Origin: Flagellimonas sp.
Lineage (GTDB): Bacteria; Bacteroidota; Bacteroidia; Flavobacteriales; Flavobacteriaceae
Direction: 5' to 3'
Assembly: GCF_965601775.1 (NCBI RefSeq)
Contig: NZ_OZ271837.1
Span: 2,374,990-2,438,989, forward strand
Length of the DNA stretch: 64,000 nt
The position numbers and the translations under genes were made by a program. Positions 21,242 through 36,507 of this stretch are shown piece by piece. Position 1 is the stretch's first letter. Each line of letters begins with the position of its first letter. The notes under the pieces were generated by a model, which saw only the letters and a program-made list of their open reading frames with translations, did no database searches and was not told where the DNA came from.

Positions 21242-21251
21242 TCTAAAAGTA

Positions 21252-21316
21252 AAAAGGTTTCCTTAAAAAGTATACTCTCTAAGAAAACCTTTAACGCTTT
21301 AACTTGTTGGGATGAC
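21252..21316 (-). repeat. att-like duplicate of the tRNA-Pro 3' end plus its terminator; also a terminator hairpin (21253-21292)
   Basis: Hand alignment to 27555-27620 gives 55/66 identity, with a 23/24 core AACGCTTTAACTTGTYGGGATGAC. Confidence 0.85.
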
Positions 21317-21481: not shown

Positions 21482-21512
21482 AAAAAAAGAGGCTGCCTTT
21501 TCAGACAACCTC
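21482..21512 (-). terminator. Intrinsic terminator of the 21538-21993 lipoprotein gene
   Basis: Minus strand GAGGTTGTCTGAAAAGGCAGCCTC followed by T7. Confidence 0.75.
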
Positions 21513-21537: not shown

Positions 21538-21993
21538 CTAGTCACCTTCACTTAAAGAGAAACTGCCATCACCATTAAAATCAGTTACAGTTATGGTTAC
21601 CGTCCAGATTCCTGATGTACCCGAAGAGGTGACCCCGTCAAACGAATCAGGTTCAACTGCACCATTTAGGCTTCTGTCCAACACGGTTGCTCCTTCAGAA
21701 TCGCGGACCACCATCTGAAAAGTTCCCTGGGCAGTGGCCGTGATATCAGCGTTGTAGTCAGCGGTGCTAAGATTATTGTTCCAACTGAACACACGAGTTG
21801 CTGTACCACCGTTACCGGTAAAGCTGGCATCAATATCCCCGTTAAAATCGGAACGGTCGCCCACTACAAAATTGGATGGGGTAGCCGTTAATTGGGTTCC
21901 ATTTACGGAAACACTTGCTGTTGGTCCATCGTCATTACTGCAGGATACCAGAACCAGTGAAAAAACCATAGCGAATAAAAGAACATGTTTCAT
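21538..21993 (-). CDS. Hypothetical lipoprotein (beta-rich, Gly/Thr/Asp-rich)
   Basis: Lipobox VLVSC, followed by SNDDG. Confidence 0.8.
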   Translation of the reverse strand: MKHVLLFAMVFSLVLVSCSNDDGPTASVSVNGTQLTATPSNFVVGDRSDFNGDIDASFTGNGGTATRVFSWNNNLSTADYNADITATAQGTFQMVVRDSEGATVLDRSLNGAVEPDSFDGVTSSGTSGIWTVTITVTDFNGDGSFSLSEGD

Positions 21994-22051: not shown

Positions 22052-22077
22052 AACAACCTTGGGTCAAAAACTCCTGA
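22052..22077 (-). promoter_or_regulatory. Putative ECF sigma promoter TCAGGA-N14-GTTGTT
   Basis: Same motif and spacing as 23340-23365 and 23944-23969. Confidence 0.75.
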
Positions 22078-22115
22078 AAATTTTTATTTTTTTCCTAACT
22101 CCTTGTTTTTCAAAT

Positions 22116-22143
22116 AAAAGAGAGCGGATAATCGCTCTCTTTT
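22116..22143 (-). terminator. Intrinsic terminator of the acidic lipoprotein gene
   Basis: AAAAGAGAGCG-GATAAT-CGCTCTCTTTT. Confidence 0.8.
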
Positions 22144-22222
22144 CAGCTAACGGAAAATATGGACCTGTTTTTCCGAAACTCAATACATTAATTTGAATTT
22201 CTCTAGAAGCAACCTTGTCCTC

Positions 22223-23302
22223 TTAGTTTCCTGAACAGTCGCTTTCGAAACTAAGTTCGTCATCTCCCATTCTTAGTTCAACTTCACTTTCACCAACTTC
22301 TTGCTCAATTTCATGAAGGTTCCAACTGGCATTGAAATCACTTAAATCAGGTATGTCTATGACCACGGTAATATCATTGCCGGAACCACTAGTTTCCCAA
22401 GTACCGGAGAAGGACTCTGAGTCGGTCTCCGCGGTTAAAGTTCCATCACCTGCAAAATTAAAGCGGTATGCCTCAAACTGCTCGTCCAAATCTTGATCAT
22501 TGCGTTCCAATTCATCCACGCTCCAATCTGAACAGCTGGTCAAAACATCTGAAAGTTGTTCAGTAGTGCAATTATCGCAATCATCATCATCAAAATCATT
22601 GTCGTCATCCTCATCGCAGTCATCTTCAGCATCCTCCAAAATATCCTCCAATTCATCAAGATTTGTGGCCTCGACCTCAGTACCATCGAACAAGATTACG
22701 GTAACCGGAAAATTCACTTGTACAATATCATCCTCATCAAGGTCATCAATAAACACATAAAGTTCTTGGTCATTGTTGAAGGTAATGGTGTCAATAACCT
22801 CATTGTTGGTGTTGAATACCGAGGCAGTGACTGGATATTTGATGTCTGCACATTCAATGTCATCATCAAATTCATTTTCCCCGTCACAGTCATCTGTAAA
22901 GTCTTCCAATTCATCCACATTGTTGATGACTAATTCAGTAAAATCACTTAGGATGATGGTTATGGGAAATAATATTTCCAGAATATCTTCATCGTCATCA
23001 AACTCATCAAAGATGTCTTCAATTACCTCCAAGTCTTCAGTCGAATCCACAATGATTTCAACACCGTCCACCACAACGGTTACTGGAAGTTGAATGGAAA
23101 TGCAGCTTGCATTGTCAATAATGTTGTCATCGGAACCATCTTTGGAAGCAGTGTTTCGCAATAAATTGGCCACGTTCGAATTCGCTGCCAAGGTCTCTTC
23201 CTGAGGACCTTCAATAAAAACAGACTCTTCCTCACGACAGGAGCCCAAGGAAAGTGTAAGAATCACTAGTAAAAAACTAAGTGCTTTCATGGTATTTTTC
23301 AT
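22223..23302 (-). CDS. Very acidic hypothetical lipoprotein with internal repeats
   Basis: Lipobox SLGSC; four (L/F/Y)P(V/I)T units, paired Cys residues, DDCDEDDDNDFDDDDC tract. Confidence 0.8.
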   Translation of the reverse strand: MKNTMKALSFLLVILTLSLGSCREEESVFIEGPQEETLAANSNVANLLRNTASKDGSDDNIIDNASCISIQLPVTVVVDGVEIIVDSTEDLEVIEDIFDEFDDDEDILEILFPITIILSDFTELVINNVDELEDFTDDCDGENEFDDDIECADIKYPVTASVFNTNNEVIDTITFNNDQELYVFIDDLDEDDIVQVNFPVTVILFDGTEVEATNLDELEDILEDAEDDCDEDDDNDFDDDDCDNCTTEQLSDVLTSCSDWSVDELERNDQDLDEQFEAYRFNFAGDGTLTAETDSESFSGTWETSGSGNDITVVIDIPDLSDFNASWNLHEIEQEVGESEVELRMGDDELSFESDCSGN

Positions 23303-23339
23303 AGGTTTTATATTTTACAATTGCTGTGTTCACTACTAA

Positions 23340-23365
23340 AACAACCCAAACCTAAAAACTCCTGA
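23340..23365 (-). promoter_or_regulatory. Putative ECF sigma promoter TCAGGA-N14-GTTGTT
   Basis: TTTTCAGGAGTTTTT-AGGTTTG-GGTTGTTTTA, 37 nt before the ATG at 23302. Confidence 0.75.
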
Positions 23366-23418
23366 AAAAAATTGAAGAATTTATTTTTTTACTTTTAACC
23401 TGAACCCAGCCGGACATT

Positions 23419-23943
23419 TTGAAGAAAGAGCTGCACAAGGATATATGCGAGGATTCTATATTTAGGGGACTCTATGAGCGTTTGGCCGATAGCCTGCATG
23501 ATTATCTGTATTATAAGTATGGGGAAAGGCTTGACCCAACCGATAAGACGCAAGAGGCGTTTATCAAACTTTGGGAAAATTGCAAAAAAGTAACCCCAGA
23601 TAAGGCCAAGTCATTTTTATTTACAGTGGCCAATAATTTAATGCTAAACGAGGTCAAGCATCAAAAAGTGGTTCTTAAATATCAAAACGACAAGCCCAAA
23701 GATGTAACCCACGAGTCTCCCGAATTTCTTTTGGAGAAAGAGGAGTACTTTAAAAAATATCAAGAAGTGCTGGCTAGTTTGACCGAGGAACAGCGAACAG
23801 CCTTTCTATTAAACAAAGCCGAAGGGAAAAAACATGGAGAAATTGCAGACCTATTGGGCGTTACGAGAAAGGTGGTTGAATACAGGATATATTCAGCATT
23901 CAAGGTATTGAAGACAGAATTAAAGGGTTTTAACATAAAATAA
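23419..23943 (+). CDS. ECF RNA polymerase sigma-70 factor
   Basis: DKTQEAFIKLW (region 2), KSFLFTVANN, LTEEQRTAFLLNKAEGKKHGEIADLLGVT (region 4); TTG start. Confidence 0.92.
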   Translation: MKKELHKDICEDSIFRGLYERLADSLHDYLYYKYGERLDPTDKTQEAFIKLWENCKKVTPDKAKSFLFTVANNLMLNEVKHQKVVLKYQNDKPKDVTHESPEFLLEKEEYFKKYQEVLASLTEEQRTAFLLNKAEGKKHGEIADLLGVTRKVVEYRIYSAFKVLKTELKGFNIK

Positions 23944-23969
23944 TCAGGAAAATGGACAGTTAAGTTGTT
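23944..23969 (+). promoter_or_regulatory. Putative ECF sigma promoter TCAGGA-N14-GTTGTT for fecR-TBDR
   Basis: Starts right after the sigma stop codon, 15 nt before the fecR ATG. Confidence 0.7.
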
Positions 23970-23984
23970 CCATTACAAAGTAAG

Positions 23985-24902
23985 ATGCGTATGGACAAGG
24001 ATTACTTGGTAGAAAAATGGCTGGCAGGAGAGCTCACGGAGAAGGAAGAAAAGGCTTTTGAGGCCCTTGAGGATGCAGCGTTCTTAAAAGGTATCGCAGC
24101 CGATGCCAAGAATTTCCAAGCCTCCCAGTTCTCCCAACCTAAAACCTATGAGGAATTCAAACAAGTCCTCAAACTCCAGAGCACCCCGGTACGAAAGCTC
24201 AACTGGCTAAGGCCGCTTATGCAAATTGCTAGCGTTCTAATTATAGGTTTTACTGCATACTATGCCTTTTTTTATGAAAATCTAACCCATGTGGAAACCC
24301 AATTTGGGCAGAAAATTACCGTAGAGCTTCCTGATGCATCAGTGGTTTCGGTCAATGCGCTATCTGAAATGGCATACAGCAAACATGGGTGGAACGACGA
24401 TAGAACCATTCAACTGGAAGGGGAGGCTTTTTTCGATGTAGCCAAAGGGAAACAGTTTACCGTAAGTACTCCCAAAGGTGAGGTTGCCGTTTTAGGCACT
24501 GAATTCAATGTGAAGCAAAGAGGTGATTTTTTTGAAGTACGATGTTTTGAAGGAACCGTTCGGGTCACAGTAAAAAATCAAAAGAAAATACTAGAAAAGG
24601 GAGATAACGTGCGATGGTTCAATGGGGAGATGGAAGAAGGCAAGAACAGCTATTCCACACCTCAATGGACCAAAAATGTCAGTGATTTCCAGAGGGTTCC
24701 CGTATCCCAAGTATTTGATGAGCTGGAAAGACAATACGGTATAAACATCACTTTGGATAATGTTGATAATCAACGTTTATTTACAGGCGGTTTTGTACAT
24801 GACAACCTGGATAATGCCCTAAAATCGATTGCAGTCCCTTTGGATTTGGACTTTGTTATTTTGGAAAACAAAAAAGTTAGGGTGAAGCCACGTGAAAAAT
24901 AG
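23985..24902 (+). CDS. FecR family anti-sigma / membrane sensor
   Basis: One TM helix, LPDASVVSVNALS, LEGEAFFDVAKG, VLGTEFNV, C-terminal DUF4974-like domain. Confidence 0.92.
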   Translation: MRMDKDYLVEKWLAGELTEKEEKAFEALEDAAFLKGIAADAKNFQASQFSQPKTYEEFKQVLKLQSTPVRKLNWLRPLMQIASVLIIGFTAYYAFFYENLTHVETQFGQKITVELPDASVVSVNALSEMAYSKHGWNDDRTIQLEGEAFFDVAKGKQFTVSTPKGEVAVLGTEFNVKQRGDFFEVRCFEGTVRVTVKNQKKILEKGDNVRWFNGEMEEGKNSYSTPQWTKNVSDFQRVPVSQVFDELERQYGINITLDNVDNQRLFTGGFVHDNLDNALKSIAVPLDLDFVILENKKVRVKPREK

Positions 24903-27405
24903 ATGCTATTCTATACTTTATCTCCTAGCTTTATTGCTCTGCGAGCCGTCACTGGCCCAGGAAACCGCTGAAAAAAGACCACTCATCACCATTTTAGAAG
25001 AGCTTCAAGGCCGCTTTGAGGTACGATTCAATTATGCCTCTGATTTGCTTGAGGAAATCACCGTAGCTATCCCTAACAAAGAATCCAGTTTGCCAGAGAT
25101 TGTCGAACAGCTGAGACAAGATACCGGTTTGGATTTTGTTTTTCTTTCCCAAAATGCCATTTCCATAAAGGCAAGAGCCACTCTTCTCTGCGGTTACGTC
25201 CGTGATAAGGACAGCAATGAACCTTTATCCTATACCACTATTCAATCCAATGGTAAAGGTACCGTGACTGATGAAGAAGGCTTTTTTGAGTTGGCTTTGC
25301 AAGGCATATCTCAAACCATAGTCATCAGGCATATTGGACATAGGACTATCCGCAGGGAAGCTCATTTGTTCGATACTTCCCAATGCGGTACCATCCATAT
25401 GGTGGCTGAACAACAAAAACTACCTGAAATCATCCTTTCCCAATACCTAATCCGTGGCATGGACAAATTGGATAATGGTGCTTTTCAACTCGATTTTGAC
25501 CAATTCTCTATCCTGCCGGGATTGGTCGAAAAGGATGTCCTGCAATCCGTGCAGGCCCTACCTGGAATTCTAAGTATTGACGAAACCGTCTCCAATATCA
25601 ATATCCGAGGTGGGAGCAATGACCAGAATCTCATACTTTGGGACAATATAAAGATGTATCAGTCTGGCCATTTTTTTGGTTTGATTTCTATGTTCAATCC
25701 CCAGATTACACAAAAAGTGGCCCTTCAGAAAAATGGTACCCCTTCCAGCTTTACTGATGGGGTATCGGGTACTATTGCGATGAGCACCGATAAGAACATC
25801 AATCCTGCTTTAAAGGGTAGTCTTGGTATCAATCTTATCGATGCCAACGGTTTTGTTGATGCACCTTTGGGTGAAAATGCCTCCGTTCAAGTTGCAGCGA
25901 GAAAAGCAATCAGTGATTTTTTTGAGACACCCACTTACTCGGAATATTTTAGTCGTATCGCTCAAGACACCGAAATTGAAGTGAACGATGCTTTGGTAAC
26001 CAACTCGGATATCGAGTTTGATTTTTATGATGCTTCCTTGCGATTTTTGTATCGCCCAAGCGATAAGGATTTCTTGCGTCTAAACTTTATACATACTGCC
26101 AATGAAGTGGTTTTTACCGAAAGTGCGGAAGTCGGAAACAATCAGGTGGAGCGGGAAAGTGGACTTGACCAGACCAGCATAGCAGCTGGCTTCTTTTACC
26201 AACGACAATGGAATGACCGTTTTAAGACGGAAATCGATATTTACAATACCGATTACAAGCTTCGGGGGATCAATGCCAATGTCCTACAGGATCAGCGTTT
26301 TTTACAGGAAAACCTAGTATCTGAAACGGGTGCTCGATTCGTGGCCCAAAACGAACTCCAAGAAAACTTCATCTTGCGCAGTGGCTATCAGTTCATTGAA
26401 ACGAAAGTGACCAATCTTGATGATGTAGACAATCCCATTTTTCGCCGGTTGGAAGGGGAGTTATTGAGGACGCATGGGGTTTTCTCTGAGCTGGATTGGT
26501 CAAGTTCCAACCGAAATACATACTTGAATGTAGGAGTGCGTTTTAACTATTTGGACAAGTTCAGAAGGCAACTTTGGGAACCCCGATTGAGCTTCAACCA
26601 TAGGTTTTTGAAGTATTTCAACCTAGAGGTTTTGGGTGAGTTTAAACATCAGAATACCTCACAAATTATTAATTTCCAAAATGATTTTTTAGGCATTGAA
26701 AGAAGGCGATGGCAACTTTCCAACGATATGGACATTCCAGTAATCCAAAGCAAACAGGGGTCTTTGGGATTGAGTTATCAAGAATCGGGTTGGCTGATTA
26801 ATACCGTAGGATTTCTTAAGGAAGTTGATGGAATAACCACCAAGAGCCAAGGCTTTTTGGATAGCTTTGAATTTGTCAGAACCTCAGGAAGATACGATGC
26901 CTTTGGTGTCGATTTTCTACTACGAAAACAATTGCAAAAATGGAATCTATGGCTAAGCTATGGGTACTTGAACAGTGGTTATGATTTTGATGAACTTCCC
27001 GAAACAGAATTCCGAAGTAATTTTGATATTACCCACTCGATAACCTCAGGAATTACCTTTTCCACATCAAAATTGAATTTGGCCATAGGTGGGAATTGGC
27101 GAACAGGAAAGCCGTTTACGCCCCCGTTGTCTAATAACGAAGTTGTTGATGGGGAGATTAATTATGGTATGGCTAACTCAAACGAATTGGACGATTTCAT
27201 ACGTCTGGATTTTTCTGCAATTTATAGCGCCAAAATCGGTAAGAAAACGAGCCTGCGAACCGGTGTTTCAATTTGGAACTTACTCAATCGTGAGAATCCC
27301 ATAAACACTTTTTTTAGGGTCAATCCGCAAAATGAAGCCCAACAAATTCTTCAGCGTTCATTAGGAATTACTCCTAATGCTAGTTTGAAGCTTTTATTTT
27401 TCTGA
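24892..27405 (+). CDS. TonB-dependent receptor with an N-terminal signalling (STN-like) domain
   Basis: N-terminal extension, GYVRDKD..EPL carboxypeptidase-like domain, plug LPGI...IRGGSNDQNLILWD, C-terminal Phe. Confidence 0.9.
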   Translation: MKNRCYSILYLLALLLCEPSLAQETAEKRPLITILEELQGRFEVRFNYASDLLEEITVAIPNKESSLPEIVEQLRQDTGLDFVFLSQNAISIKARATLLCGYVRDKDSNEPLSYTTIQSNGKGTVTDEEGFFELALQGISQTIVIRHIGHRTIRREAHLFDTSQCGTIHMVAEQQKLPEIILSQYLIRGMDKLDNGAFQLDFDQFSILPGLVEKDVLQSVQALPGILSIDETVSNINIRGGSNDQNLILWDNIKMYQSGHFFGLISMFNPQITQKVALQKNGTPSSFTDGVSGTIAMSTDKNINPALKGSLGINLIDANGFVDAPLGENASVQVAARKAISDFFETPTYSEYFSRIAQDTEIEVNDALVTNSDIEFDFYDASLRFLYRPSDKDFLRLNFIHTANEVVFTESAEVGNNQVERESGLDQTSIAAGFFYQRQWNDRFKTEIDIYNTDYKLRGINANVLQDQRFLQENLVSETGARFVAQNELQENFILRSGYQFIETKVTNLDDVDNPIFRRLEGELLRTHGVFSELDWSSSNRNTYLNVGVRFNYLDKFRRQLWEPRLSFNHRFLKYFNLEVLGEFKHQNTSQIINFQNDFLGIERRRWQLSNDMDIPVIQSKQGSLGLSYQESGWLINTVGFLKEVDGITTKSQGFLDSFEFVRTSGRYDAFGVDFLLRKQLQKWNLWLSYGYLNSGYDFDELPETEFRSNFDITHSITSGITFSTSKLNLAIGGNWRTGKPFTPPLSNNEVVDGEINYGMANSNELDDFIRLDFSAIYSAKIGKKTSLRTGVSIWNLLNRENPINTFFRVNPQNEAQQILQRSLGITPNASLKLLFF

Positions 27406-27554: not shown

Positions 27555-27595
27555 AAAAGGCTTCCTGAAGAAAGTGAACTTTCTACGGAAGCCTT
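27555..27595 (-). terminator. tRNA-Pro terminator
   Basis: AAGGCTTCC...GGAAGCCTT with an inner AGAAAG/CTTTCT stem, then TTCGATTTT on the minus strand. Confidence 0.75.
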
Positions 27596-27610
27596 CAACG
27601 CTTTAACTTG

Positions 27611-27684
27611 TCGGGATGACTGGATTCGAACCAGCGACCACACGCACCCCATGCGTGTACGCTACCAGACTGCGCCACATCCCG
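27611..27684 (-). tRNA. tRNA-Pro(GGG)
   Basis: CGGGATG/CATCCCG acceptor stem, D arm GCGCAGTCTGGTAGCGT, anticodon arm CACGC-ATGGGGT-GCGTG, T loop GGTTCGAATCC; CCA not encoded. Confidence 0.97.
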
Positions 27685-28194: not shown

Positions 28195-31100
28195 TTACCT
28201 AAGTAGTGTGAAATGTCCTACGAACTGCTGATTTTCTGAGTCATTTGCATTTACAACATACCAATAGTCTCCAGTCGGGAGTGGACTACCATCATAAGTT
28301 CCATCCCATTTTCTTACTTGATCCAATCGGGCCACTACCCTACCGTAGCGGTCATAGATGATGACATCGATATTGGGGAAGAACTCTCTGTTCTCCGGGT
28401 ACCAAAAATCATTCATATTGTCGCCATCCGGGGTGAAGAAGGGCGGGAAATCTGGCATGCCTTCAAAATTGAAAGGCAATACAAAGTTAGCCACACAACC
28501 ATTTTGGTCCACCACCATGATGTTTACGGTGGCATCCGCAATGATATTGAATACATTATTTTCCCCTGTAGACTCCCCTTGGAAGAAGTATTCATACCCT
28601 CCAAATCCTCCAGAGGCCGTTGCCGTAATTTCGTTAGGACCGGTTTTCATGGCTTCCAAAACCAAAGGTTCATAGGCATCAATTTCAAATTCCACGAAAG
28701 TCACACATCCGTTTTGATGATAGATGTACACTGTATGTTCACCAGGAGTTAAATCTGGGAATATACGTTGGTCCGTAGCCATTTGTATATCTTCTACATC
28801 CAAAGAGAACAGCAAATTGGGTAGCAAAGAACTATCCTGTACCGAAATGGTAGTGGTGCTATTTGGGAAGATTCCCTCACAACCGTACTCAACAATTGGT
28901 TCTGCCATAATTTCGATACCCAAATCAATATCGGCAATCACGTTGGTTTGACATCCATTGGCATCTCGGACGAAGACCACATAAGTTTCTCCTCCAGCAA
29001 GGTTGTCAAAGAACATGGTATCGTTCTGGACAAAATCGGCATCATCTGCTGAGTTAACACTTGTATAATATGGCGCAGTACCTCCGGTAACGGATAAGGT
29101 CATTGTACCATCTTCATCTCCCAAGCAGGTTTCTGGTGTCGTAGAAACCACCCCTGCCAATAGTTCCATAGGTTGTGTAATTTCAACTGTCCGGGTTATG
29201 GTACAACCTAAATCATCCTGAATGATGATATCGTAACTTCTCGGCGCCAAGTCGGTAAATGTTCTTCTATTAGGATGCACAGGGTCATCTCCTACAAAGA
29301 ATTCACTCAGGTTATCAGAAATGGAGTAACGGATAGCTCCGGTACCACCACTAGCTTCTATGATGATTTGACCATTACTATCTCCAGCACATAGTACTGG
29401 TACCGCTTCCAAGTATTCCAATACTAATGGAGGTTTAGGCTCTATGACGATAGGTGTTGAAATCGCCTCACATCCCCCACTCTGGGCATATACAAAATAG
29501 GTGCCTGGAGGTAGATTTCTAAATATTCCTGAGCTTTGAGCGGGTCTTACCGTGTTAACTGCTGTTGGATTTGGCGGGGTATTTGAATTCAACAAGGTAT
29601 ACACGTAACTTCCAATCCCTCCAAATGCTTCGGAACGTATAATTCCTGTAGCTTCTCCAGCACAGTTAATAGTTGCATTGGTCAAGTCCAAGGCAATCAC
29701 AAGTGGTGCTGCTGGGTCCAAGGATATTTGATTGGAACGTTCGAAAGGACAACCATTGGAATTCTGAACATCATATTGGAAAGGTCCAGGGTCTAGCGTA
29801 ATGTCAGCAGAGATTTCGATGCTGGTCATACCAACTCCAAAGGGAGTAAAAGGGTCAGCCGTTCCAGACCTTCTATAAAAATAATCTACACCAACTTCAG
29901 GATTGGTAACGGTGAGTTCCATTCTACCCAAATCCCCACATCCTGGTGGCTGCAATTCGACCAATTCGGCAACTACAATTTCCGGGTCTTGTACGGTAAT
30001 TGGAATTGTGGTAAAGCTACAGTTCCATCCATCAAAAATGGTTATGGTATAGTCCCCGGCAGAAAGGTTGGCAAAAGTAGGAGTCGTTTGAAGACCGCTA
30101 TTAGTCCCATCCGTAATACGATTCAGTTGATAGAGATAGTTGCCTGGTCCTTGCCCACCTGCAATATTGAATGCTTCAATGATTCCATCGTTGTCATTGT
30201 TACAACGGAGTTGTTGTACTATTTGAATATCTGCAGTAATTGGGGTCGGTAGAGGAAGGTTAATAGTATTACCGGTCTCACAACCTTCAGCATCTCTAAT
30301 ATTAACGGTATATGTTCCAGTGGATAGACCTGGGAAAACTGGATTCGTGTTTGGATAGTCAACCAAAACAGTGATTCCATCAGGTGCTATCAACTGATAC
30401 TCATATCCACCCCAACCTCCATCACCGGAAGCGGTAATCTCACCCAAACCAGGAACATTACAGGTTACTTCTCCTGTTTGAACCAAAGGAACGGTTAATG
30501 CCCTATCTGGAGACCGTACGGTAGTTACGTTACTGGTCACATCACAAAATGGAGTATCCAGTGCTTCAACTCTAACCACAAGGTTTCCTGCTGGTAGTCC
30601 CGCAATAATTTCTGGAGTGTTGATAGGAGCGTTTGTATCGAAGCTTCCCGTTACTCCAGTGGATGTTTCAACTCCAGCGCTATCCCGCGTAAATACTTCA
30701 TAGTTATATTGACCGCTATAGTTATTTACTTCTAGGCTGATTTCTCCATCATTTCCATTAAAACAGGTAACGGGTCTAACCTCCGCAATTATCGCCTCAA
30801 TATTATTGTATTCTGGCATGTTAACTGTAGAAGTAAGATAGGTACATCCTCCACTTCCAATATCCGTAACTGCAAAAATGTAGTCCCCAGGAGTGGAAAT
30901 ATCCCAAGTCACCCGATCTGTTCCTCCTGAGTTTCTAGCAGGTTCTGAACCTAGAGGCAGTATTTCAACTTCATAGTTTCCGGGACCTTCATTAATAATA
31001 ATATCGATAGTACCCGGACTCACTCCTGTACCCGAAGCATCACAAGTAATTGGGTTGACATTAAAACTAAAAGTAATATCCGTGGGTGTATTTATGGTTA

Positions 31101-34100
31101 CGGTGGATGTCTCCTCACAACCATTTTGATCTCTTGCGGTAAGAATAATGGTTTGATTAGTACCGTTGTCAATCACCTCGAACGTATTGCTGGTTTGGAA
31201 ATTCGTTCCATCAAACTGAAGGGTCCCATCATTCATGCTATAGGTATACGGCCCTGTACCTGTAGCCGTACCGGTACCGTCCCCATTAGTATCCGTAAAA
31301 ATGGTAATGGTTGCTGTACTAAATTGATTACTGGCAGGATTACAAGTAAAATCGGTATTTATAGCATTTACCTGTAATAAGGTAGGTTCCGTAATCGTAA
31401 CATCCCCTGACCTGTCCGTACATCCTCTATCCGATACAACCTCAACCTGATAAGTTCCAGGTACTAGGTTGTCGAAAATAGCTGTAGGCTGTGGACCAGC
31501 AATTATCGTCGTTGTGGACCCATCGTATAAAATATAACTTAAAGGCGTATCCGTATCACTTCCGGGCTGTAATTCTACAGCAATCGTTCCGTCTCCAGCT
31601 CCATTACAGGTCACATCAGTACTCGGGGTGGCCGTAATTATAGGAGTATTAACTGTTGAAACGTTTACAATAGCCTCATCCGTACACAAAGGTGTTGTGT
31701 TAGAGCTTAAATCGGTTACTAAAATATTATAATCCCCCGGTAACACATTGATAAAAGTGTTTGAGCTTTGAGCTGGACCAATATTGGCCAAAGTACCTGC
31801 ATCCCTTAGTTGGAATTCAAAGTTTCCACTTCCTCCGGTAGTATTGACCGTAATAGTTCCGTCACCTGCATTACAAGTAGGCAATGAAGTAGCATCAGCT
31901 GTAATGGCAAAGAAATCAAACACTTCGGCATTTACTGTTGTGGTACATCCATTACCATCCCTTATGGTGATGACATAATTGCCTGGGTTAGGAACCACGA
32001 AATTTGGACTACTTTGGAATCCACTGCCAATATCATATTGGAATGTCGTTTCCGGTGCGGGACCGGTGGTTAAAGGCGCAGTTACGTTGATTTGATACCC
32101 ACTCGTAGCCGTACACTGATTAATTACATCAATTGTAGGAGTTGGAATACCAGGGTCCTGATCAACGGTTGCGGTGGTAAAAGCAGTACATCCGTTAGCA
32201 TCCCTTACATAAAAATCGTAATCTGTAGGATAGGGTGCACCTATTTCAAAAGTGGTATCCGTCGTAAAAGTGGATGGAGCTGGGTCTCCCGTAGGAACGT
32301 ATGCAAATTCATAAGGACCAGTGCTTCCAAATCCTCTTACCGTTACAAAAGCACCTGCATTACAAGTAGCATTCACATTGCTATCAATCGCGATATTAGG
32401 ATTGCTTATTCCAATAAAAACCAAGGTACTGGCACTACAACCCGAAATATCATCTGTAACGATAATTTGATAGTTGCCTGGTGCCAACCCGGTAAACGTA
32501 TCAGCATAAGGAACCGGTTCGTTCGTCAATGAATTTGTAGAAAGGGTTGCTCCGGTATCCGTATTTTCTAAAGTGATAGTAAAATCTCCTGGACTCGGAG
32601 TAATACCATCAACCGTATAGTCAATAGTTCCGTTCCCCGATGTTCCACAAGAAATTGTGTTTGCTGTCGCCGTTACAGTTACTGGATTTGTAGCGGCTAT
32701 TGGGTCAATACGTTCAATGTAAGTACATCCTAGGGCATCTACTACCTCAACAAAATAAGTAACTCCAAAGGTCACAAGACCGGTAACATCAAAAATATCA
32801 TTACCAGGTCCTGTTCCCGGCTGAAATACTGGGTCACCTACTAATCTGAATTGGTATGGAGCGGTTCCCCCTGTGGCCTGTACCCGATACGTAAATGCTG
32901 AGCCAGAACAAACCGGTGGAGGTGTATCTAAAGGAATTAAATCCAATTGATTTTGGTCGATAATAAAATCATCCCGGTCTTCACAACCTTGGGAATCTCG
33001 AGTAACCACAGTATAATTCCCTAAATCCAAGTTGGGGAAATTTACAGTAGTACTGGCAGTTCCAGTTGAAGCGGCAATCAGGGTTCCGGAACCATCATAT
33101 AACTCATAATCGAAAGGTCCGACCCCGTTGTTAATTGTAGTAGAAACAGAACCCAGCACACTTCCCGCAGAACAAACTGCATTGGTCGGTGTTGCCGTAG
33201 CATCCAAAGGAGAACTATTACCTATTGTAACGTCATATACGGGGCTTACACACCCTCTACTATCGCGTATTACAAATCCCGTTTGCAATCCAGGTCCGTA
33301 TCCCGAAAAGATATTTTGAGTACTGAAAGTGACTCCACCATCGTTACTGTATTCGTATGGAGGTACACCTTGAGTTGTATCCGGAATCAACTCCACGATA
33401 CCACTTGTCAAATCACCACACTGCGTATCTGTTCCGACCACGGAACCAGCAATGGTTTCGGGCGGTGTTATGGTTACCACATTGGTTTCGGTGGTACATC
33501 CTTGGCTATCCGTAACTAAAAATTGATACGTTGTGTCTGAAGTTATGGAACCGTCATTGGGAATACTGTAAATAAAGGAATTCCCAGTTATATTATTGCT
33601 ATCGGATGTATAGGGGGCACCATTAATGCTTACTTCATAAATATCGTAATCACCACCGGAAGTGTATCCATTGCTGATATCCACTTGTATTTGAGCTGGG
33701 GGACCAGCACAGTCCAATTCCTGAATTATACTCGCATTGGCCACTACCTGAGGTTCGATTGTTCGAGTTACAGTATCCCGACAATCATTAGCGTCAACAA
33801 CTTCAATGGTATACGTCCCAGGAGTTAGTCCATTAAACGTGTTGCTAGCCCCTAATGGACCTCCATTGATTCTGTATTGATACGGTGCAGCTCCCAACGA
33901 TGCGGTAACCACCAAAGTAGCCGCATTAAAGTTGTCATAACATAAATCGGATGAACCTAAATCCAAAGTTAAGGTGGGTGCATCCAATCGGGTTAACGTA
34001 AAACTGTCGGTAACGGTACACCCGTTGGCATCTGTCACACTTACTTGATATAGACCATCTTGGGAAAGATTAGAAAATACTGATCCATTTTTTGGTCCTC

Positions 34101-36507
34101 GAGTAGATCCATCGGGTTGGGTAAGGGTATATCGATTACCTCCCCATCCACCAACAGTATTTATTCGAACGGCACCAATATTCCCATTTTGACAGCTCAT
34201 AGCGGTAACATCAAGACTTGAAATCGCAAAAGCTGTAGCAGGTTCTTCAATAACCAAAGTAGCTGTATCCGTACAATTGGTTTCTTCGTCAGTTACAGAA
34301 ATCACATAACTACCTGCAGAAAGTCCAGTCAAAGGAATAATGCTATTCGTTTGGCCAGTGAATACGGTACCACCATCAATACTATAGCTGTAGGTGGTAT
34401 TAAATCCATCCACTAGGTATCTTCCCTCACCATCTGAATCTCCGACACAGGTAACCACCCTAGTTTGTTGGGCTTGAACTCCTATGGAGCTTATATCTGT
34501 AATGGCATAGTTTTCATCATAGGAACATCCTTCAGCATCTGTTACTCGGAAAGTATAGGTCCCTAACCCGAGTCCAATAAAGCTATTGTTCGTTCCATTA
34601 TTTACGGCACTTGCCGCGGGCGCAATAATTTCATAAGTATACGGTGCAGTACCATCGGTTACGGTAACATCAATTGTTGCTGTTGTAGTGATACAATTGA
34701 GACTTGAAACCGCAAAATCCAAATCCGTTGGCTTGTTTAAAGTATTGAAAACGATATCCGGTAGCGGTTGGACACAACCATTGGCATCCCGTACCAAAGG
34801 GGTATAAGTTCCCACTCCTAAATTCGGGAATACTGGATTAGTACCAAATCCAGCTCCAATACTATACTCATAGGGGGCTGTTCCACCAGATACCCCAGAA
34901 ATCGTGATTTGCCCTCCGGTTTCATTTAAACAGCTTGGTGCAGAATCAGGGGTTGCCGTTGCCGAAATGGTTGAAGGTGTGCCAATAGTAGCTACTTGTG
35001 GCGTAGTGGTACAAACGAAGGTATCTTGCTGATATCGCAAGACAACATCATATGTACCAGGCGCCAAGTTGGAGAATACATTACTTATCTGATAGTTTGC
35101 ACCATTATCAATGCTATATTCAATTTCATATCCAAAACCGTTTACGATATTAACGGTAATTCGACCATTGTTTGACCCTCCACAATTAGCATCTTCTTCT
35201 GTGAGCGTATAGGTTGGAGGAGGAATATCCTGCACATCTACCAATGCACTTCGTTGACACCCATTAGCGTCTTCAACCAAAATGGAATAGGTCCCTGGCG
35301 TAGTAACGGCAAAAGAACTGGTCGACGCATAGGTTGGACCGAAAGGACCTCCATCAACACTAAAACGATAAGGTGCGGTACCACCAGAGGTCGTTACATC
35401 AACATCTATGGAAGTTGCACCACAGCCAAAGCTATCAGATGCGGTGGCAGAGACATCCAACGGGCTAATTCCACTCCCTATTTCAATAGGGTCACCATTT
35501 ACATCCAAGGTAATGGTTTCAGAACAGTTGTTTGTATCGACTCGAATACTGTAAACACCAGTACCAATATTGGCAAAAGTGTAGGAATCTGAAGCATCAG
35601 GACCAAATGTATCTACCGTAACACCATTTCTTATCAAACGATAGGTGTAGAATCCTGGAACTCCCGAAACCTGAACATCGATACTACCCAATTCCCCGCT
35701 ACAAAGAATATCATTGGCGGTTACATCCACATTAATATCCAAGTCTTGAACGGTGACTGAGTTGGAAGGAAACACACAAGCACTGGAAGGGGAATTTCTT
35801 AAACGTGCAAAAACCCGGTAATTCCCAGGTGCAGTAATATCAAAAAATGGATCATCTTGATATGGTCCCGCAGCGCTATTCAAACTATACTCGTAACCTG
35901 CCGGTACGTTGGTCACTTCCACCCTACCCGGATTGCCGCAAATAATATCCTCATGAATCAATTGGGGATCTAGTGGATTTAAGGTGGATTTGAAATAAAA
36001 ATACTGTCCTGAATCCACACGAACCCTAAATTCGCCATCAGTTGACAGATTAAATGTAGGTCCCGTCCCAACGGTGTTCCAAGTACAAGACGCATTGATT
36101 GTGGGACAATCTTCAACCACTGTGGGGGCACAGGTATTTGGGTCCAACTGCTGCCATTCATAATTGGAACCGGATTGGGAAAGACTTAAGGTTCTGATAT
36201 CACTGGTTCCACAAAGGAAAAACTTGGATAACGTACTTCCATCATTTGGGCATACCACTTCCTCATCGGCGCCTTGAATGATGGTCATGAACATTGCGCT
36301 TGCTGTAGCGCTCTTACTAGTTTTGGTAAAATTCTTTTGTGCTGACAACGAAGAGGACTCCTTCTCTGTCTTGGACTTTGAAGTTACAGAAGTTGCTTTG
36401 AAAATAAATTCAGCTACATCTGTTTTCGCCAGTACCGTGGTTCCATATACTGAGGCTGATATGAACAACACGGCATAGATGATATGCCTTGTTTTTCGAG
36501 GAAGCAT
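28195..36507 (-). CDS. Large SprB-like adhesin with a type B T9SS C-terminal domain (gliding motility-associated CTD)
   Basis: About 29 units of about 90 aa ending in VxDxxGC (hand count); CTD FFTPDGDNMNDFW...IYDRYG...WDGTYDGSPLPTGDYWY...GHFTLLR. Confidence 0.92.
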   Translation of the reverse strand: MLPRKTRHIIYAVLFISASVYGTTVLAKTDVAEFIFKATSVTSKSKTEKESSSLSAQKNFTKTSKSATASAMFMTIIQGADEEVVCPNDGSTLSKFFLCGTSDIRTLSLSQSGSNYEWQQLDPNTCAPTVVEDCPTINASCTWNTVGTGPTFNLSTDGEFRVRVDSGQYFYFKSTLNPLDPQLIHEDIICGNPGRVEVTNVPAGYEYSLNSAAGPYQDDPFFDITAPGNYRVFARLRNSPSSACVFPSNSVTVQDLDINVDVTANDILCSGELGSIDVQVSGVPGFYTYRLIRNGVTVDTFGPDASDSYTFANIGTGVYSIRVDTNNCSETITLDVNGDPIEIGSGISPLDVSATASDSFGCGATSIDVDVTTSGGTAPYRFSVDGGPFGPTYASTSSFAVTTPGTYSILVEDANGCQRSALVDVQDIPPPTYTLTEEDANCGGSNNGRITVNIVNGFGYEIEYSIDNGANYQISNVFSNLAPGTYDVVLRYQQDTFVCTTTPQVATIGTPSTISATATPDSAPSCLNETGGQITISGVSGGTAPYEYSIGAGFGTNPVFPNLGVGTYTPLVRDANGCVQPLPDIVFNTLNKPTDLDFAVSSLNCITTTATIDVTVTDGTAPYTYEIIAPAASAVNNGTNNSFIGLGLGTYTFRVTDAEGCSYDENYAITDISSIGVQAQQTRVVTCVGDSDGEGRYLVDGFNTTYSYSIDGGTVFTGQTNSIIPLTGLSAGSYVISVTDEETNCTDTATLVIEEPATAFAISSLDVTAMSCQNGNIGAVRINTVGGWGGNRYTLTQPDGSTRGPKNGSVFSNLSQDGLYQVSVTDANGCTVTDSFTLTRLDAPTLTLDLGSSDLCYDNFNAATLVVTASLGAAPYQYRINGGPLGASNTFNGLTPGTYTIEVVDANDCRDTVTRTIEPQVVANASIIQELDCAGPPAQIQVDISNGYTSGGDYDIYEVSINGAPYTSDSNNITGNSFIYSIPNDGSITSDTTYQFLVTDSQGCTTETNVVTITPPETIAGSVVGTDTQCGDLTSGIVELIPDTTQGVPPYEYSNDGGVTFSTQNIFSGYGPGLQTGFVIRDSRGCVSPVYDVTIGNSSPLDATATPTNAVCSAGSVLGSVSTTINNGVGPFDYELYDGSGTLIAASTGTASTTVNFPNLDLGNYTVVTRDSQGCEDRDDFIIDQNQLDLIPLDTPPPVCSGSAFTYRVQATGGTAPYQFRLVGDPVFQPGTGPGNDIFDVTGLVTFGVTYFVEVVDALGCTYIERIDPIAATNPVTVTATANTISCGTSGNGTIDYTVDGITPSPGDFTITLENTDTGATLSTNSLTNEPVPYADTFTGLAPGNYQIIVTDDISGCSASTLVFIGISNPNIAIDSNVNATCNAGAFVTVRGFGSTGPYEFAYVPTGDPAPSTFTTDTTFEIGAPYPTDYDFYVRDANGCTAFTTATVDQDPGIPTPTIDVINQCTATSGYQINVTAPLTTGPAPETTFQYDIGSGFQSSPNFVVPNPGNYVITIRDGNGCTTTVNAEVFDFFAITADATSLPTCNAGDGTITVNTTGGSGNFEFQLRDAGTLANIGPAQSSNTFINVLPGDYNILVTDLSSNTTPLCTDEAIVNVSTVNTPIITATPSTDVTCNGAGDGTIAVELQPGSDTDTPLSYILYDGSTTTIIAGPQPTAIFDNLVPGTYQVEVVSDRGCTDRSGDVTITEPTLLQVNAINTDFTCNPASNQFSTATITIFTDTNGDGTGTATGTGPYTYSMNDGTLQFDGTNFQTSNTFEVIDNGTNQTIILTARDQNGCEETSTVTINTPTDITFSFNVNPITCDASGTGVSPGTIDIIINEGPGNYEVEILPLGSEPARNSGGTDRVTWDISTPGDYIFAVTDIGSGGCTYLTSTVNMPEYNNIEAIIAEVRPVTCFNGNDGEISLEVNNYSGQYNYEVFTRDSAGVETSTGVTGSFDTNAPINTPEIIAGLPAGNLVVRVEALDTPFCDVTSNVTTVRSPDRALTVPLVQTGEVTCNVPGLGEITASGDGGWGGYEYQLIAPDGITVLVDYPNTNPVFPGLSTGTYTVNIRDAEGCETGNTINLPLPTPITADIQIVQQLRCNNDNDGIIEAFNIAGGQGPGNYLYQLNRITDGTNSGLQTTPTFANLSAGDYTITIFDGWNCSFTTIPITVQDPEIVVAELVELQPPGCGDLGRMELTVTNPEVGVDYFYRRSGTADPFTPFGVGMTSIEISADITLDPGPFQYDVQNSNGCPFERSNQISLDPAAPLVIALDLTNATINCAGEATGIIRSEAFGGIGSYVYTLLNSNTPPNPTAVNTVRPAQSSGIFRNLPPGTYFVYAQSGGCEAISTPIVIEPKPPLVLEYLEAVPVLCAGDSNGQIIIEASGGTGAIRYSISDNLSEFFVGDDPVHPNRRTFTDLAPRSYDIIIQDDLGCTITRTVEITQPMELLAGVVSTTPETCLGDEDGTMTLSVTGGTAPYYTSVNSADDADFVQNDTMFFDNLAGGETYVVFVRDANGCQTNVIADIDLGIEIMAEPIVEYGCEGIFPNSTTTISVQDSSLLPNLLFSLDVEDIQMATDQRIFPDLTPGEHTVYIYHQNGCVTFVEFEIDAYEPLVLEAMKTGPNEITATASGGFGGYEYFFQGESTGENNVFNIIADATVNIMVVDQNGCVANFVLPFNFEGMPDFPPFFTPDGDNMNDFWYPENREFFPNIDVIIYDRYGRVVARLDQVRKWDGTYDGSPLPTGDYWYVVNANDSENQQFVGHFTLLR

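What the first reader, a model, noticed from the sequence alone, without database searches (positions are those of the whole stretch)
22052..23969. A complete ECF regulon readable from sequence: TCAGGA-N14-GTTGTT occurs three times inside the islet
Seen in sequence: the same bipartite motif with exact 14-nt spacing lies upstream of lipoprotein 21993 (22052-22077, minus), acidic lipoprotein 23302 (23340-23365, minus) and fecR-TBDR (23944-23969, plus). The two minus copies share TTTTCAGGAGTTTTT-N7-GGTTGTTTTA. Each lipoprotein gene has its own terminator, so each is a separate unit. I did not notice the motif elsewhere in the window. Established: FecI/FecR/TBDR cell-surface signalling activates ECF sigma promoters with -35/-10 boxes. 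Inference: this is the cognate promoter of sigma 23419-23943, and the circuit's output is two uncharacterised lipoproteins plus positive feedback on receptor and anti-sigma. No SusD or enzymes are present, so it is a signalling circuit of unknown ligand and not a typical PUL.
Basis: partly seen in the sequence, partly recalled or inferred. Interest (0 to 1): 0.7.

Follow-up and report, generated by a model that had tools for sequence, protein, structure and literature searches.

The report
Self-contained ECF sigma regulon islet
A five-gene unit in a marine flavobacterium encodes an outer-membrane sensor, its membrane relay and a dedicated sigma factor, and comparative evidence indicates that the three copies of the sigma factor's own promoter switch on the sensor genes and two probably surface-exposed lipoproteins; it is an ordinary kind of circuit, but its wiring can be read unusually completely from sequence.

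Summary
TCAGGA-N14-GTTGTT occurs exactly three times in the window (0.01 expected). These are the only three copies in the whole 3.94 Mb genome. Each lies just upstream of, and points towards, a gene: small lipoprotein lipoS, acidic lipoprotein lipoAc, and fecR-TBDR.

- The module lipoAc <- -> sigma-fecR-TBDR recurs in about 20 other genera. The two boxes are conserved at both orthologous positions while the spacer varies.
- A weight matrix built only from other genomes ranks the three own sites first (39, 36 and 32.5 bits). The next site scores 22 bits, which is the chance level.
- Across 37 sigma/fecR gaps, the -35 hexamer changes together with the sigma's region 4.2 helix. KVVEYRIYS goes with TCAGGA, KAVEKRIYG with GTAGGA, and RVVDSRVYN with TACGCA.
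- Two metagenomic relatives keep all three promoters, including the lipoS one.

The sigma gene itself sits behind a conserved housekeeping -7 box and is not autoregulated.

The five genes are bracketed by a 66-nt direct repeat at tRNA-Pro and are patchy within the genus.

This is a new member of FecI/FecR/FecA-type cell-surface signalling. The ligand is unknown. No transcription start site or expression data were available.

The parts
21251..21316 (.). Left copy of the 66-nt direct repeat that brackets the five genes
   Evidence: It is 77% identical to 27555-27620.
21489..21512 (-). Intrinsic terminator after lipoS
   Evidence: A 10-bp stem followed by TTTTTTT. Folding energy is -16.2 kcal/mol, z -4.0.
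21538..21993 (-). lipoS: 151-aa lipoprotein with a beta-sandwich fold and no Pfam family
   Evidence: The lipobox is LVSC followed by SNDDG. It has no Pfam family. The AF2 model is a beta-sandwich with weak CBM-like matches. A family of more than 700 hypothetical proteins exists.
22052..22077 (-). ECF promoter P_lipoS (-35 TCAGGA, -10 GTTGTT); its -10 ends 58 nt before the ATG
   Evidence: It scores 36.3 bits with the matrix built from other genomes. It is conserved in L082 and L085 with a different spacer.
22116..22143 (-). Intrinsic terminator after lipoAc
   Evidence: An 11-bp stem followed by a U-run; -16.3 kcal/mol, z -2.95.
22223..23302 (-). lipoAc: 359-aa very acidic lipoprotein with three Cys-bracketed alpha/beta repeats and a C-terminal lipocalin-like barrel
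   Evidence: The lipobox is LGSC followed by REEES. The alignment shows invariant Cys residues and the block DDCDEDDD.D..DDDC..C. The AF2 model has pLDDT above 90 for residues 250-350. The best fold match is DUF4847 (PDB 4zgf) and lipocalins. The gene is conserved divergently from the sigma in 18 of 20 loci.
23340..23365 (-). ECF promoter P_lipoAc; its -10 ends 37 nt before the ATG
   Evidence: It scores 39.0 bits. The boxes are invariant in the 13-genus alignment.
23390..23397 (+). Housekeeping (sigma-A type) -7 box TACTTTTA for the sigma gene
   Evidence: TA..TTT is invariant or nearly so in the 13-genus alignment. It matches the Bacteroidetes consensus TAnnTTTG (PMC7366714). Its function is inferred.
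23419..23943 (+). ECF sigma factor, 174 aa, TTG start
   Evidence: Sigma70_r2 and Sigma70_r4_2 domains. TIGR02937 scores 66.9, above its 42.9 cut-off; TIGR02985 is the best hit but below cut-off. The start position is shared with orthologues that use ATG.
23944..23969 (+). Internal ECF promoter P_fecR, starting on the base after the sigma stop codon
   Evidence: It scores 32.5 bits. It is conserved in the sigma/fecR gap of 27 loci.
23985..24902 (+). FecR-like anti-sigma factor (orthologues start at the second ATG, 23991)
   Evidence: FecR at 1.3e-19 and FecR_C at 3.1e-9. One hydrophobic span is read by eye in the sequence. The start is aligned.
24892..27405 (+). TonB-dependent receptor/transducer, 837 aa, overlapping the fecR stop
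   Evidence: CarbopepD_reg_2 and Plug domains. The 76-aa N-terminal extension is weakly like STN and FecR_C. There is no PDB relative by sequence.
27555..27620 (.). Right copy of the 66-nt direct repeat, overlapping the 3' end of tRNA-Pro(GGG) at 27610-27684 (-)

Best explanation
This is a FecI/FecR/FecA-type cell-surface signalling unit of a marine Flavobacteriaceae genome. TCAGGA-N14-GTTGTT is the cognate promoter of its ECF sigma factor (23419-23943).

Proposed working:
1. The sigma gene is transcribed from a conserved housekeeping -7 box. With no terminator in the 41-bp gap, read-through gives basal fecR and receptor.
2. The membrane FecR-like anti-sigma holds the sigma inactive.
3. When the receptor binds its unknown ligand, its N-terminal extension signals to FecR and the sigma is released.
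4. Sigma-RNA polymerase then starts transcription at three local promoters.
   - One is internal, in front of fecR-TBDR. It gives more sensor and more anti-sigma but no sigma autoregulation.
   - One is divergent, for the acidic repeat lipoprotein lipoAc.
   - One serves the small lipoprotein lipoS. Each lipoprotein unit ends at its own terminator.
5. Both lipoproteins carry acidic residues just after the lipid-modified Cys. They are probably exported to the cell surface, where I infer they help the receptor capture its ligand.

Shown here: the motif, its uniqueness in the genome, its conservation, and its co-variation with sigma region 4.2.

Inferred: transcription start sites, induction, signalling, surface location and the role of the lipoproteins.
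For: - The motif occurs 3 times in the window against 0.01 expected. These are the only 3 in 3.94 Mb.
- All three copies are intergenic, 15-58 nt upstream of a start codon, and oriented towards it.
- The four-gene module is present in 19-20 other genera.
- Both boxes are invariant at both orthologous positions, while the spacer and flanks drift.
- A matrix made from 29 sites of other genomes scores the own sites 39.0, 36.3 and 32.5 bits. The next site scores 22.2 bits and lies antisense inside an ORF.
- The -35 hexamer, at a fixed 15 nt from (T/C)TGTT, follows the class of the sigma 4.2 helix in 37 loci. It changes in both promoters of a genome at once.
- Two other sigma-fecR-TBDR modules in this genome have the same two-promoter layout with their own -35 hexamer.
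- Close metagenomic relatives keep all three sites.
- TGTT at about -10 is a feature of the non-canonical promoter class of B. thetaiotaomicron (PMC12596196, PMC7366714).
- The residues after the lipobox Cys (REEES in lipoAc; SNDDG in lipoS, family consensus SKDDD) resemble the Bacteroidetes lipoprotein export signal C-X-K-(D/E)2 / SDDDD (PMC5080379).
Against: - There is no transcript evidence. The public runs that hold this DNA are genome assemblies or fragmentary contigs.
- The STN signalling domain of the receptor is only weakly detectable (E 0.045).
- The paralogous sigmas share the -10 box, and two of them share GTAGGG, so some cross-talk cannot be excluded.
- The sigma falls below the curated cut-off of its best subfamily model (98.3 against 126.4 bits).
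- lipoS homologues in other genomes usually sit behind a GTAGGG-type promoter. Its membership of this regulon is therefore recent and lineage-specific.
- The roles of the lipoproteins are guesses. The fold matches are weak.
Confidence: 0.82

Rival explanations
1. The motif is an ECF-type promoter, but a different, unlinked ECF sigma of the genome reads it (about 30 are encoded), or several paralogues share it. The local sigma would then not be its specific reader.
For: The genome encodes about 30 ECF sigmas and 5 FecR proteins. All FecR-linked modules share the -10 element (T/C)TGTT. lipoS homologues elsewhere are driven by a GTAGGG-type promoter, which shows that targets move between regulons.
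Against: The -35 hexamer tracks the region 4.2 helix of the adjacent sigma across 37 loci and 4-5 helix classes. In the subclade with a changed helix, both promoters changed together. The own paralogues have different hexamers beside their own genes.
Confidence: 0.08
2. The bipartite motif is the operator of a DNA-binding regulator (a repressor or activator) and not a promoter. Transcription would then start from ordinary housekeeping promoters nearby.
For: No transcription start data exist. A conserved bipartite site upstream of genes is also what a transcription factor site looks like.
Against: The two halves are unrelated and not palindromic. The orientation always points to the gene. The spacing is fixed and falls in the ECF range: 16 nt from TCAGGA to TGTT. 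No housekeeping TAnnTTTG box lies between the motif and the lipoAc or fecR starts, which are only 15-37 nt away. No regulator other than the sigma is conserved in the module. The motif co-varies with sigma region 4.2.
Confidence: 0.05
3. The three copies are leftovers of local DNA duplication or chance, with no function.
For: The two minus-strand copies share extra flanking bases (TTTTCAGGAGTTTTT, GGTTGTTTTA), as a duplicated segment would.
Against: Only the boxes match; the spacers differ. The same boxes are kept across genera at 45-85% protein identity while neighbouring bases diverge. The chance expectation is about 0.01 per window.
Confidence: 0.02

Closest known systems
FecI/FecR/FecA cell-surface signalling of E. 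coli and the Pseudomonas systems (FpvI/FpvR/FpvA, PupI/PupR/PupB, FoxI/FoxR/FoxA)
   Same: The three components are an ECF sigma, a FecR-domain anti-sigma with a FecR_C domain, and a TonB-dependent receptor with an N-terminal extension. A sigma-specific promoter lies in front of the receptor gene. The sigma gene itself is not under that promoter, as with fecIR in E. coli.
   Different: - The sigma-dependent promoter sits between the sigma and anti-sigma genes, so the anti-sigma belongs to the regulon.
- The outputs are two lipoproteins and not an inner-membrane transport operon.
- No iron-related genes are present.
- The STN domain is barely detectable.
- The promoter boxes are TCAGGA and GTTGTT.
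Bacteroidota ECF-sigma/anti-sigma/SusC-like trans-envelope signalling in polysaccharide utilization loci; ECF240 (former ECF10) in the ECF classification (PMC2709373, PMC7826278)
   Same: Same phylum, a FecR-like anti-sigma, an adjacent CarboxypepD_reg-Plug receptor, and several paralogous modules per genome. PMC7826278 states that no member of ECF240 has been addressed experimentally.
   Different: There is no SusD partner, no glycoside hydrolases, and no match to the SusC/RagA model. The conserved partner is a family of acidic, Cys-bracketed repeat lipoproteins with a lipocalin-like end. Assignment to the ECF240 group could not be tested here.
TonB-dependent transporters of Bacteroidota paired with non-SusD surface lipoproteins, such as BtuB-BtuG and BtuH (PMC6143338, PMC8941943)
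   Same: A receptor gene lies next to genes for lipoproteins that carry the acidic export signal after the lipid-modified Cys. The suggested role is ligand capture at the surface.
   Different: No sequence or fold relationship to BtuG or BtuH was found. Physical association with the receptor is only inferred here.
Non-canonical promoter class PM2 of B. thetaiotaomicron, with TGTT near -10 (PMC7366714, PMC12596196)
   Same: A two-box promoter with TGTT in the -10 element and a second box near -30/-35.
   Different: In B. thetaiotaomicron the responsible sigma is not settled, and the class is linked to stress and stationary-phase genes.

Membership tests
FecI/FecR/FecA-type cell-surface signalling | ECF sigma factor with only regions 2 and 4 | tested here: met
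   Sigma70_r2 at 4.5e-10 and Sigma70_r4_2 at 6.5e-12. TIGR02937 sigma70-ECF scores 66.9, above its 42.9 cut-off.
FecI/FecR/FecA-type cell-surface signalling | Adjacent membrane anti-sigma factor with a periplasmic FecR domain and a FecR C-terminal domain | tested here: met
   PF04773 at 1.3e-19 and PF16344 at 3.1e-9, both above cut-off. One hydrophobic span is read by eye.
FecI/FecR/FecA-type cell-surface signalling | TonB-dependent receptor with an N-terminal signalling (STN) extension ahead of the plug | tested here: inconclusive
   The Plug domain scores 24.1, just above its 23.9 cut-off. A 76-aa extension precedes the CarboxypepD_reg domain. It matches STN only at E 0.045 and FecR_C at 3.2e-4, both below cut-off.
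FecI/FecR/FecA-type cell-surface signalling | Sigma-dependent promoter in front of the receptor gene | tested here: met
   Tested by sequence only. A conserved two-box motif lies in the sigma/fecR gap of 27 loci, and its -35 box co-varies with sigma region 4.2. It was not tested by transcript mapping.
FecI/FecR/FecA-type cell-surface signalling | Ligand-dependent induction through the receptor | not testable with these tools
   There is no expression data for this organism, and the ligand is unknown.
ECF240 (former ECF10), Bacteroidetes FecI-like group | Assignment by the group's own HMM (ECF Hub) | not testable with these tools
   Those models are not available here. The context fits: Bacteroidota, a FecR-like anti-sigma and a neighbouring receptor (PMC7826278).
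NCBIfam TIGR02985 (Sig70_bacteroi1 subfamily) | Score at or above the curated cut-off of 126.4 bits | tested here: not met
   It is the best-scoring family, but at only 98.3 bits.
Polysaccharide utilization locus (SusC/SusD) | A SusD-family lipoprotein next to a SusC-type transporter, usually with glycan-active enzymes | tested here: not met
   No SusD and no enzyme family was found among the five genes. The receptor has no SusC/RagA hit in NCBIfam at E<=0.01.
Surface-exposed lipoproteins of Bacteroidota (lipoprotein export signal) | A lipobox Cys followed within about 5 residues by a polar or basic residue and then two or more acidic residues | tested here: met
   lipoAc has C-REEES. lipoS has C-SNDDG, with family consensus C-SKDDD, compared with PMC5080379. 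Surface location itself was not tested.

The most novel reading that the evidence does not exclude
The acidic, Cys-bracketed repeat lipoprotein with a lipocalin-like end may be a new class of surface partner for TonB-dependent transporters. Its invariant DDCDEDDD...DDDC block might capture a cationic or metal-bound ligand. Sensor, regulator, promoters and outputs may travel together as a self-contained unit that moves between flavobacterial genomes at tRNA-Pro. The family-wide pairing of the sigma 4.2 helix with the -35 hexamer would give a readable specificity code for an ECF group that has never been studied experimentally.
Probability: 0.25. Interest if true: 0.6.

Novelty: new member of a known kind. 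Interest (0 to 1): 0.45.

Why it matters
Bacteroidota carry dozens of ECF sigma factors per genome. The literature I read reports very few recognition sequences for them. A 2020 paper says none was known for any B. thetaiotaomicron ECF sigma, and a 2021 classification says no ECF240 member had been studied experimentally.

In this case the promoter, its reader and the whole target set can be assigned from sequence alone. The natural co-variation between sigma helix and -35 box across genera is ready to be tested by helix or box swaps.

The result also points to a widespread and unnamed family of lipoproteins in marine Flavobacteriaceae as the conserved output of such a sensor. That gives a concrete route to their function and to the unknown ligand.

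If the unit really moves as a block, it shows how a regulon can be transferred without rewiring the host.

Tried and rejected
- **RNA evidence.** Two searches for sequencing runs found only four runs of the same organism. Three give contigs of 100-320 kb at flat depth, so they are genomic. One gives fragmentary contigs. No transcript ends could be read.
- **A fourth regulon member.** The best extra site (C1:710270-710307, 22.2 bits, GTTGTC) lies antisense inside the 3' end of a 200-aa ORF, with no gene downstream. About two sites of that score are expected by chance. I rejected it as a target.
- **One-mismatch matches.** Eighty-six matches with one mismatch or 13-15 nt spacing were listed across the genome. 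None besides that site had the extended context.
- **lipoS in the other-genus loci.** tblastn found no lipoS homologue in the 20 orthologous loci of other genera.
- **lipoS elsewhere.** Where lipoS homologues were found (7 of 151 genera, 14 of 61 congeners), they are unlinked to the module and mostly sit behind GTAGGG-type promoters.
- **Published ECF240 promoter logos.** The supplementary files of the ECF classification paper are not held.
- **Rfam.** The scan of the region found only the tRNA.
- **PDB sequence search with the receptor.** Nothing was found.
- **Fold searches.** lipoS gave only generic beta-sandwich (CBM-like) matches at TM 0.4-0.5. lipoAc gave only lipocalin/DUF4847 matches for its C-terminal domain. 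Neither is enough to name a ligand.
- **A -33 TTG for the sigma's housekeeping promoter.** It lies only 15 nt from the -7 box, so I do not claim it.
Full report
**The observation**

The pattern TCAGGA-N14-GTTGTT occurs at 22052-22077 (-), 23340-23365 (-) and 23944-23969 (+). That is three matches against 0.01 expected from dinucleotide-preserving shuffles of the window. A scan of the complete genome (one contig, 3,936,817 bp; the window is C1:2374990-2438989) finds the same three and no others. Base composition predicts about 0.5 chance matches per genome (my arithmetic). Ten related genomes gave 0-1 for the reversed-pattern control.

Each copy is intergenic and points at the gene that follows.
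- The first ends 58 nt before the ATG of a 151-aa lipoprotein (lipoS, 21538-21993, -).
- The second ends 37 nt before the ATG of a 359-aa acidic lipoprotein (lipoAc, 22223-23302, -).
- The third begins on the base after the sigma stop codon and ends 15-21 nt before the fecR start.

Both lipoprotein genes are followed by their own hairpin and T-run, at 21489-21512 and 22116-22143.
- an ECF sigma with regions 2 and 4;
- a FecR plus FecR_C anti-sigma;
- a receptor with CarboxypepD_reg and Plug domains;
- two products with lipobox signal peptides.

No SusD or enzyme gene is present.

**Conservation**

I searched one genome from each of 150 other genera of the family with the FecR protein. This gave a graded series of orthologues. 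I fetched 15 kb around the best twenty. In 18 of the 20 loci a lipoAc homologue lies beside sigma-fecR-TBDR, in nearly all of them directly divergent from the sigma.

In the main clade the two boxes are present at both orthologous positions: the sigma/fecR gap and the region upstream of lipoAc. The 14-nt spacer and the flanks differ from genus to genus. In a 13-genus alignment of the divergent intergenic region, four islands are conserved:
- the two start codons;
- TTTCAGGAG;
- GTTGTT.TA;
- the reverse complement of TA..TTT.

The last of these matches the -7 box of the Bacteroidetes housekeeping sigma, TAnnTTTG (PMC7366714). In this genome it is TACTTTTA at 23390-23397. So the sigma gene appears to have an ordinary promoter of its own. 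It starts with TTG at 23419, and several orthologues have ATG at that same position.

**Is the regulon complete?**

I built a weight matrix from 29 sites of other genomes only and scanned both strands of this genome. The three sites score 39.0, 36.3 and 32.5 bits. The next best scores 22.2 bits, and everything else scores 16 or less.

The 22-bit site lies antisense inside the 3' end of a 200-aa ORF with no gene downstream. About two sites of that score are expected by chance. At this sensitivity the regulon is therefore the three local units.

Three orthologous loci (L044, L051, L053) lack TCAGGA. At exactly the same distance (15 nt) from TTGTT they have TACGCA, TACGTA or TATGAA instead, in both promoters of the same genome. 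Their sigma proteins differ from the rest in the region 4.2 helix. They have GVTRRVVDSRVYNAS where the main clade has GVT(K/R/Q)KVVEYRIYSAF.

I extended this to 37 sigma/fecR gaps, including more distant paralogues and congeners. The rule holds:

| Region 4.2 helix | -35 hexamer | Loci |
|---|---|---|
| KVVEYRIYS | TCAGGA or a one-base variant | about 27 |
| KAVEKRIYG | GTAGGA | 7 |
| RVVDSRVYN | TACGCA / TATGAA | 2-3 |
| RVVESRIFN | CGCGTA | 1 |

This genome's own second module is at C1:2805530-2811521. Its helix is KAIEKRMHL. It carries GTAGGG-N15-TTGTT both in its sigma/fecR gap and divergently before a 599-aa lipoprotein. A third module (C1:523290-529067) has GGGGTAGGGT-N14-CTGTTC in the same two places.

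The layout of one internal promoter before fecR and one divergent promoter before a neighbouring envelope gene is thus a recurrent design. The -35 box is the variable, sigma-specific part, and (T/C)TGTT is the shared -10 part. TGTT near -10 has been described for the non-canonical promoter class of B. thetaiotaomicron (PMC12596196, PMC7366714). Counted from TCAGGA to TGTT the spacer is 16 nt, which I know to be the usual ECF range.

**The third site**

lipoS has no homologue in the twenty loci of other genera. Its family is patchy: it is present in 7 of 151 genera and 14 of 61 congeners. In those genomes it is unlinked to the module and mostly preceded by a GTAGGG-type promoter.

Two close metagenomic relatives (lipoS 86% and 92% identical) do carry TBDR-fecR-sigma <-> lipoAc, a 296-aa lipocalin-domain gene, and lipoS. 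Both have all three TCAGGA-type promoters at the corresponding places and a terminator hairpin before the lipoS promoter. Their spacers differ from the one here.

So the lipoS promoter is under selection in this lineage. The gene seems to have been recruited from another sigma's regulon. The 296-aa gene is missing in this genome.

**What the parts may do**

The lipoAc alignment shows eight invariant cysteines, repeated FP.T...DG.E units, and an invariant acidic block DDCDEDDD.D..DDDC..C. The predicted structure has three alpha/beta repeats of moderate confidence and a confident C-terminal beta-barrel. The best structural matches of that barrel are a DUF4847 protein and lipocalins. Database homologues carry the same names.

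lipoS is predicted as a beta-sandwich with weak resemblance to carbohydrate-binding modules.

Both proteins have acidic residues right after the lipid-modified Cys (C-REEES; C-SNDDG, family consensus C-SKDDD). This resembles the Bacteroidetes lipoprotein export signal (PMC5080379), so surface exposure is likely. Acting as capture partners of the receptor is my inference. The ligand is unknown.

The receptor has a 76-aa extension before its CarboxypepD_reg domain. The extension is only weakly like STN or FecR_C, so the signalling-domain criterion is not firmly met.

**Context**

A 66-nt direct repeat (21251-21316 and 27555-27620, 77% identical) brackets exactly the five genes. The right copy overlaps the 3' end of tRNA-Pro(GGG).

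Only 8 of 61 congeners have a fecR orthologue, the best at 62% identity, whereas a genome of another genus has 70%. This fits horizontal movement of the whole unit. It also fits a regulon that is entirely local.

**Limits**

No RNA data exist for this organism in the runs served. Start sites, induction and sigma dependence therefore remain inferred. ECF group assignment could not be made. The best NCBIfam subfamily (TIGR02985) is below its cut-off.

**Verdict**

- Observation: confirmed.
- Kind of system: a new member of FecI/FecR/FecA-type signalling, in the Bacteroidota group that the literature says has not been studied experimentally (PMC7826278).
- Earlier notes: two notes of this scan on other genomes describe the same kind of module. 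They agree with this reading but are not independent evidence.

Noticed in passing
genome C1:2805530-2811521 (outside the window): A paralogous module with the same layout: a 599-aa lipoprotein divergent from sigma-fecR-TBDR. GTAGGG-N15-TTGTT lies before the lipoprotein (C1:2807390, -) and before fecR (C1:2808018, +). Further GTAGGG-type sites occur at C1:1196287, 1795335, 2557657 and 2601525.
   Followed up: partly
genome C1:523290-529067 (outside the window): A third sigma-fecR-TBDR module. GGGGTAGGGT-N14-CTGTTC lies in the sigma/fecR gap and divergently before a 525-aa gene.
   Followed up: partly
window 21251-21316 and 27555-27620: A 66-nt direct repeat (77% identical) brackets exactly the five genes. 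The right copy overlaps the 3' end of tRNA-Pro(GGG) at 27610-27684 (-). The module is patchy in the genus (8 of 61 species), and its closest relative is in another genus.
   Followed up: partly
loci L061-L081 (lipoS homologues in other genomes): Most lipoS homologues elsewhere sit behind a GTAGGG-type promoter and are unlinked to the module. The copy here, and those in L082 and L085, are behind TCAGGA. This looks like a gene that changed regulon by a change of its -35 box.
   Followed up: partly
L082 4744-5634 and L085 4871-5761: Close metagenomic relatives have a 296-aa gene between lipoAc and lipoS. It carries lipocalin-like domains related to the lipoAc C-terminus. The gene is absent in this genome.
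   Followed up: no
genome C1:710270-710307 (-): This is the best extra match to the promoter matrix (22.2 bits, GTTGTC). It lies antisense inside the 3' end of a 200-aa ORF. It is probably chance, but could be an antisense start.
   Followed up: partly
window 23419: The sigma gene starts with TTG, as do most orthologues across genera. A minority use ATG at the same position.
   Followed up: partly
window 28195-36507 (-): A 2770-aa open reading frame lies just beyond the tRNA-Pro. I did not examine it.
   Followed up: no
L041, L042, L045-L048, L050, L052: In a subset of genera the module sits in a larger conserved neighbourhood. Gene clusters of about 127, 282, 121 and 181 aa lie beyond lipoAc, and clusters of 179 and 439 aa lie beyond the receptor. 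Their functions were not examined.
   Followed up: no
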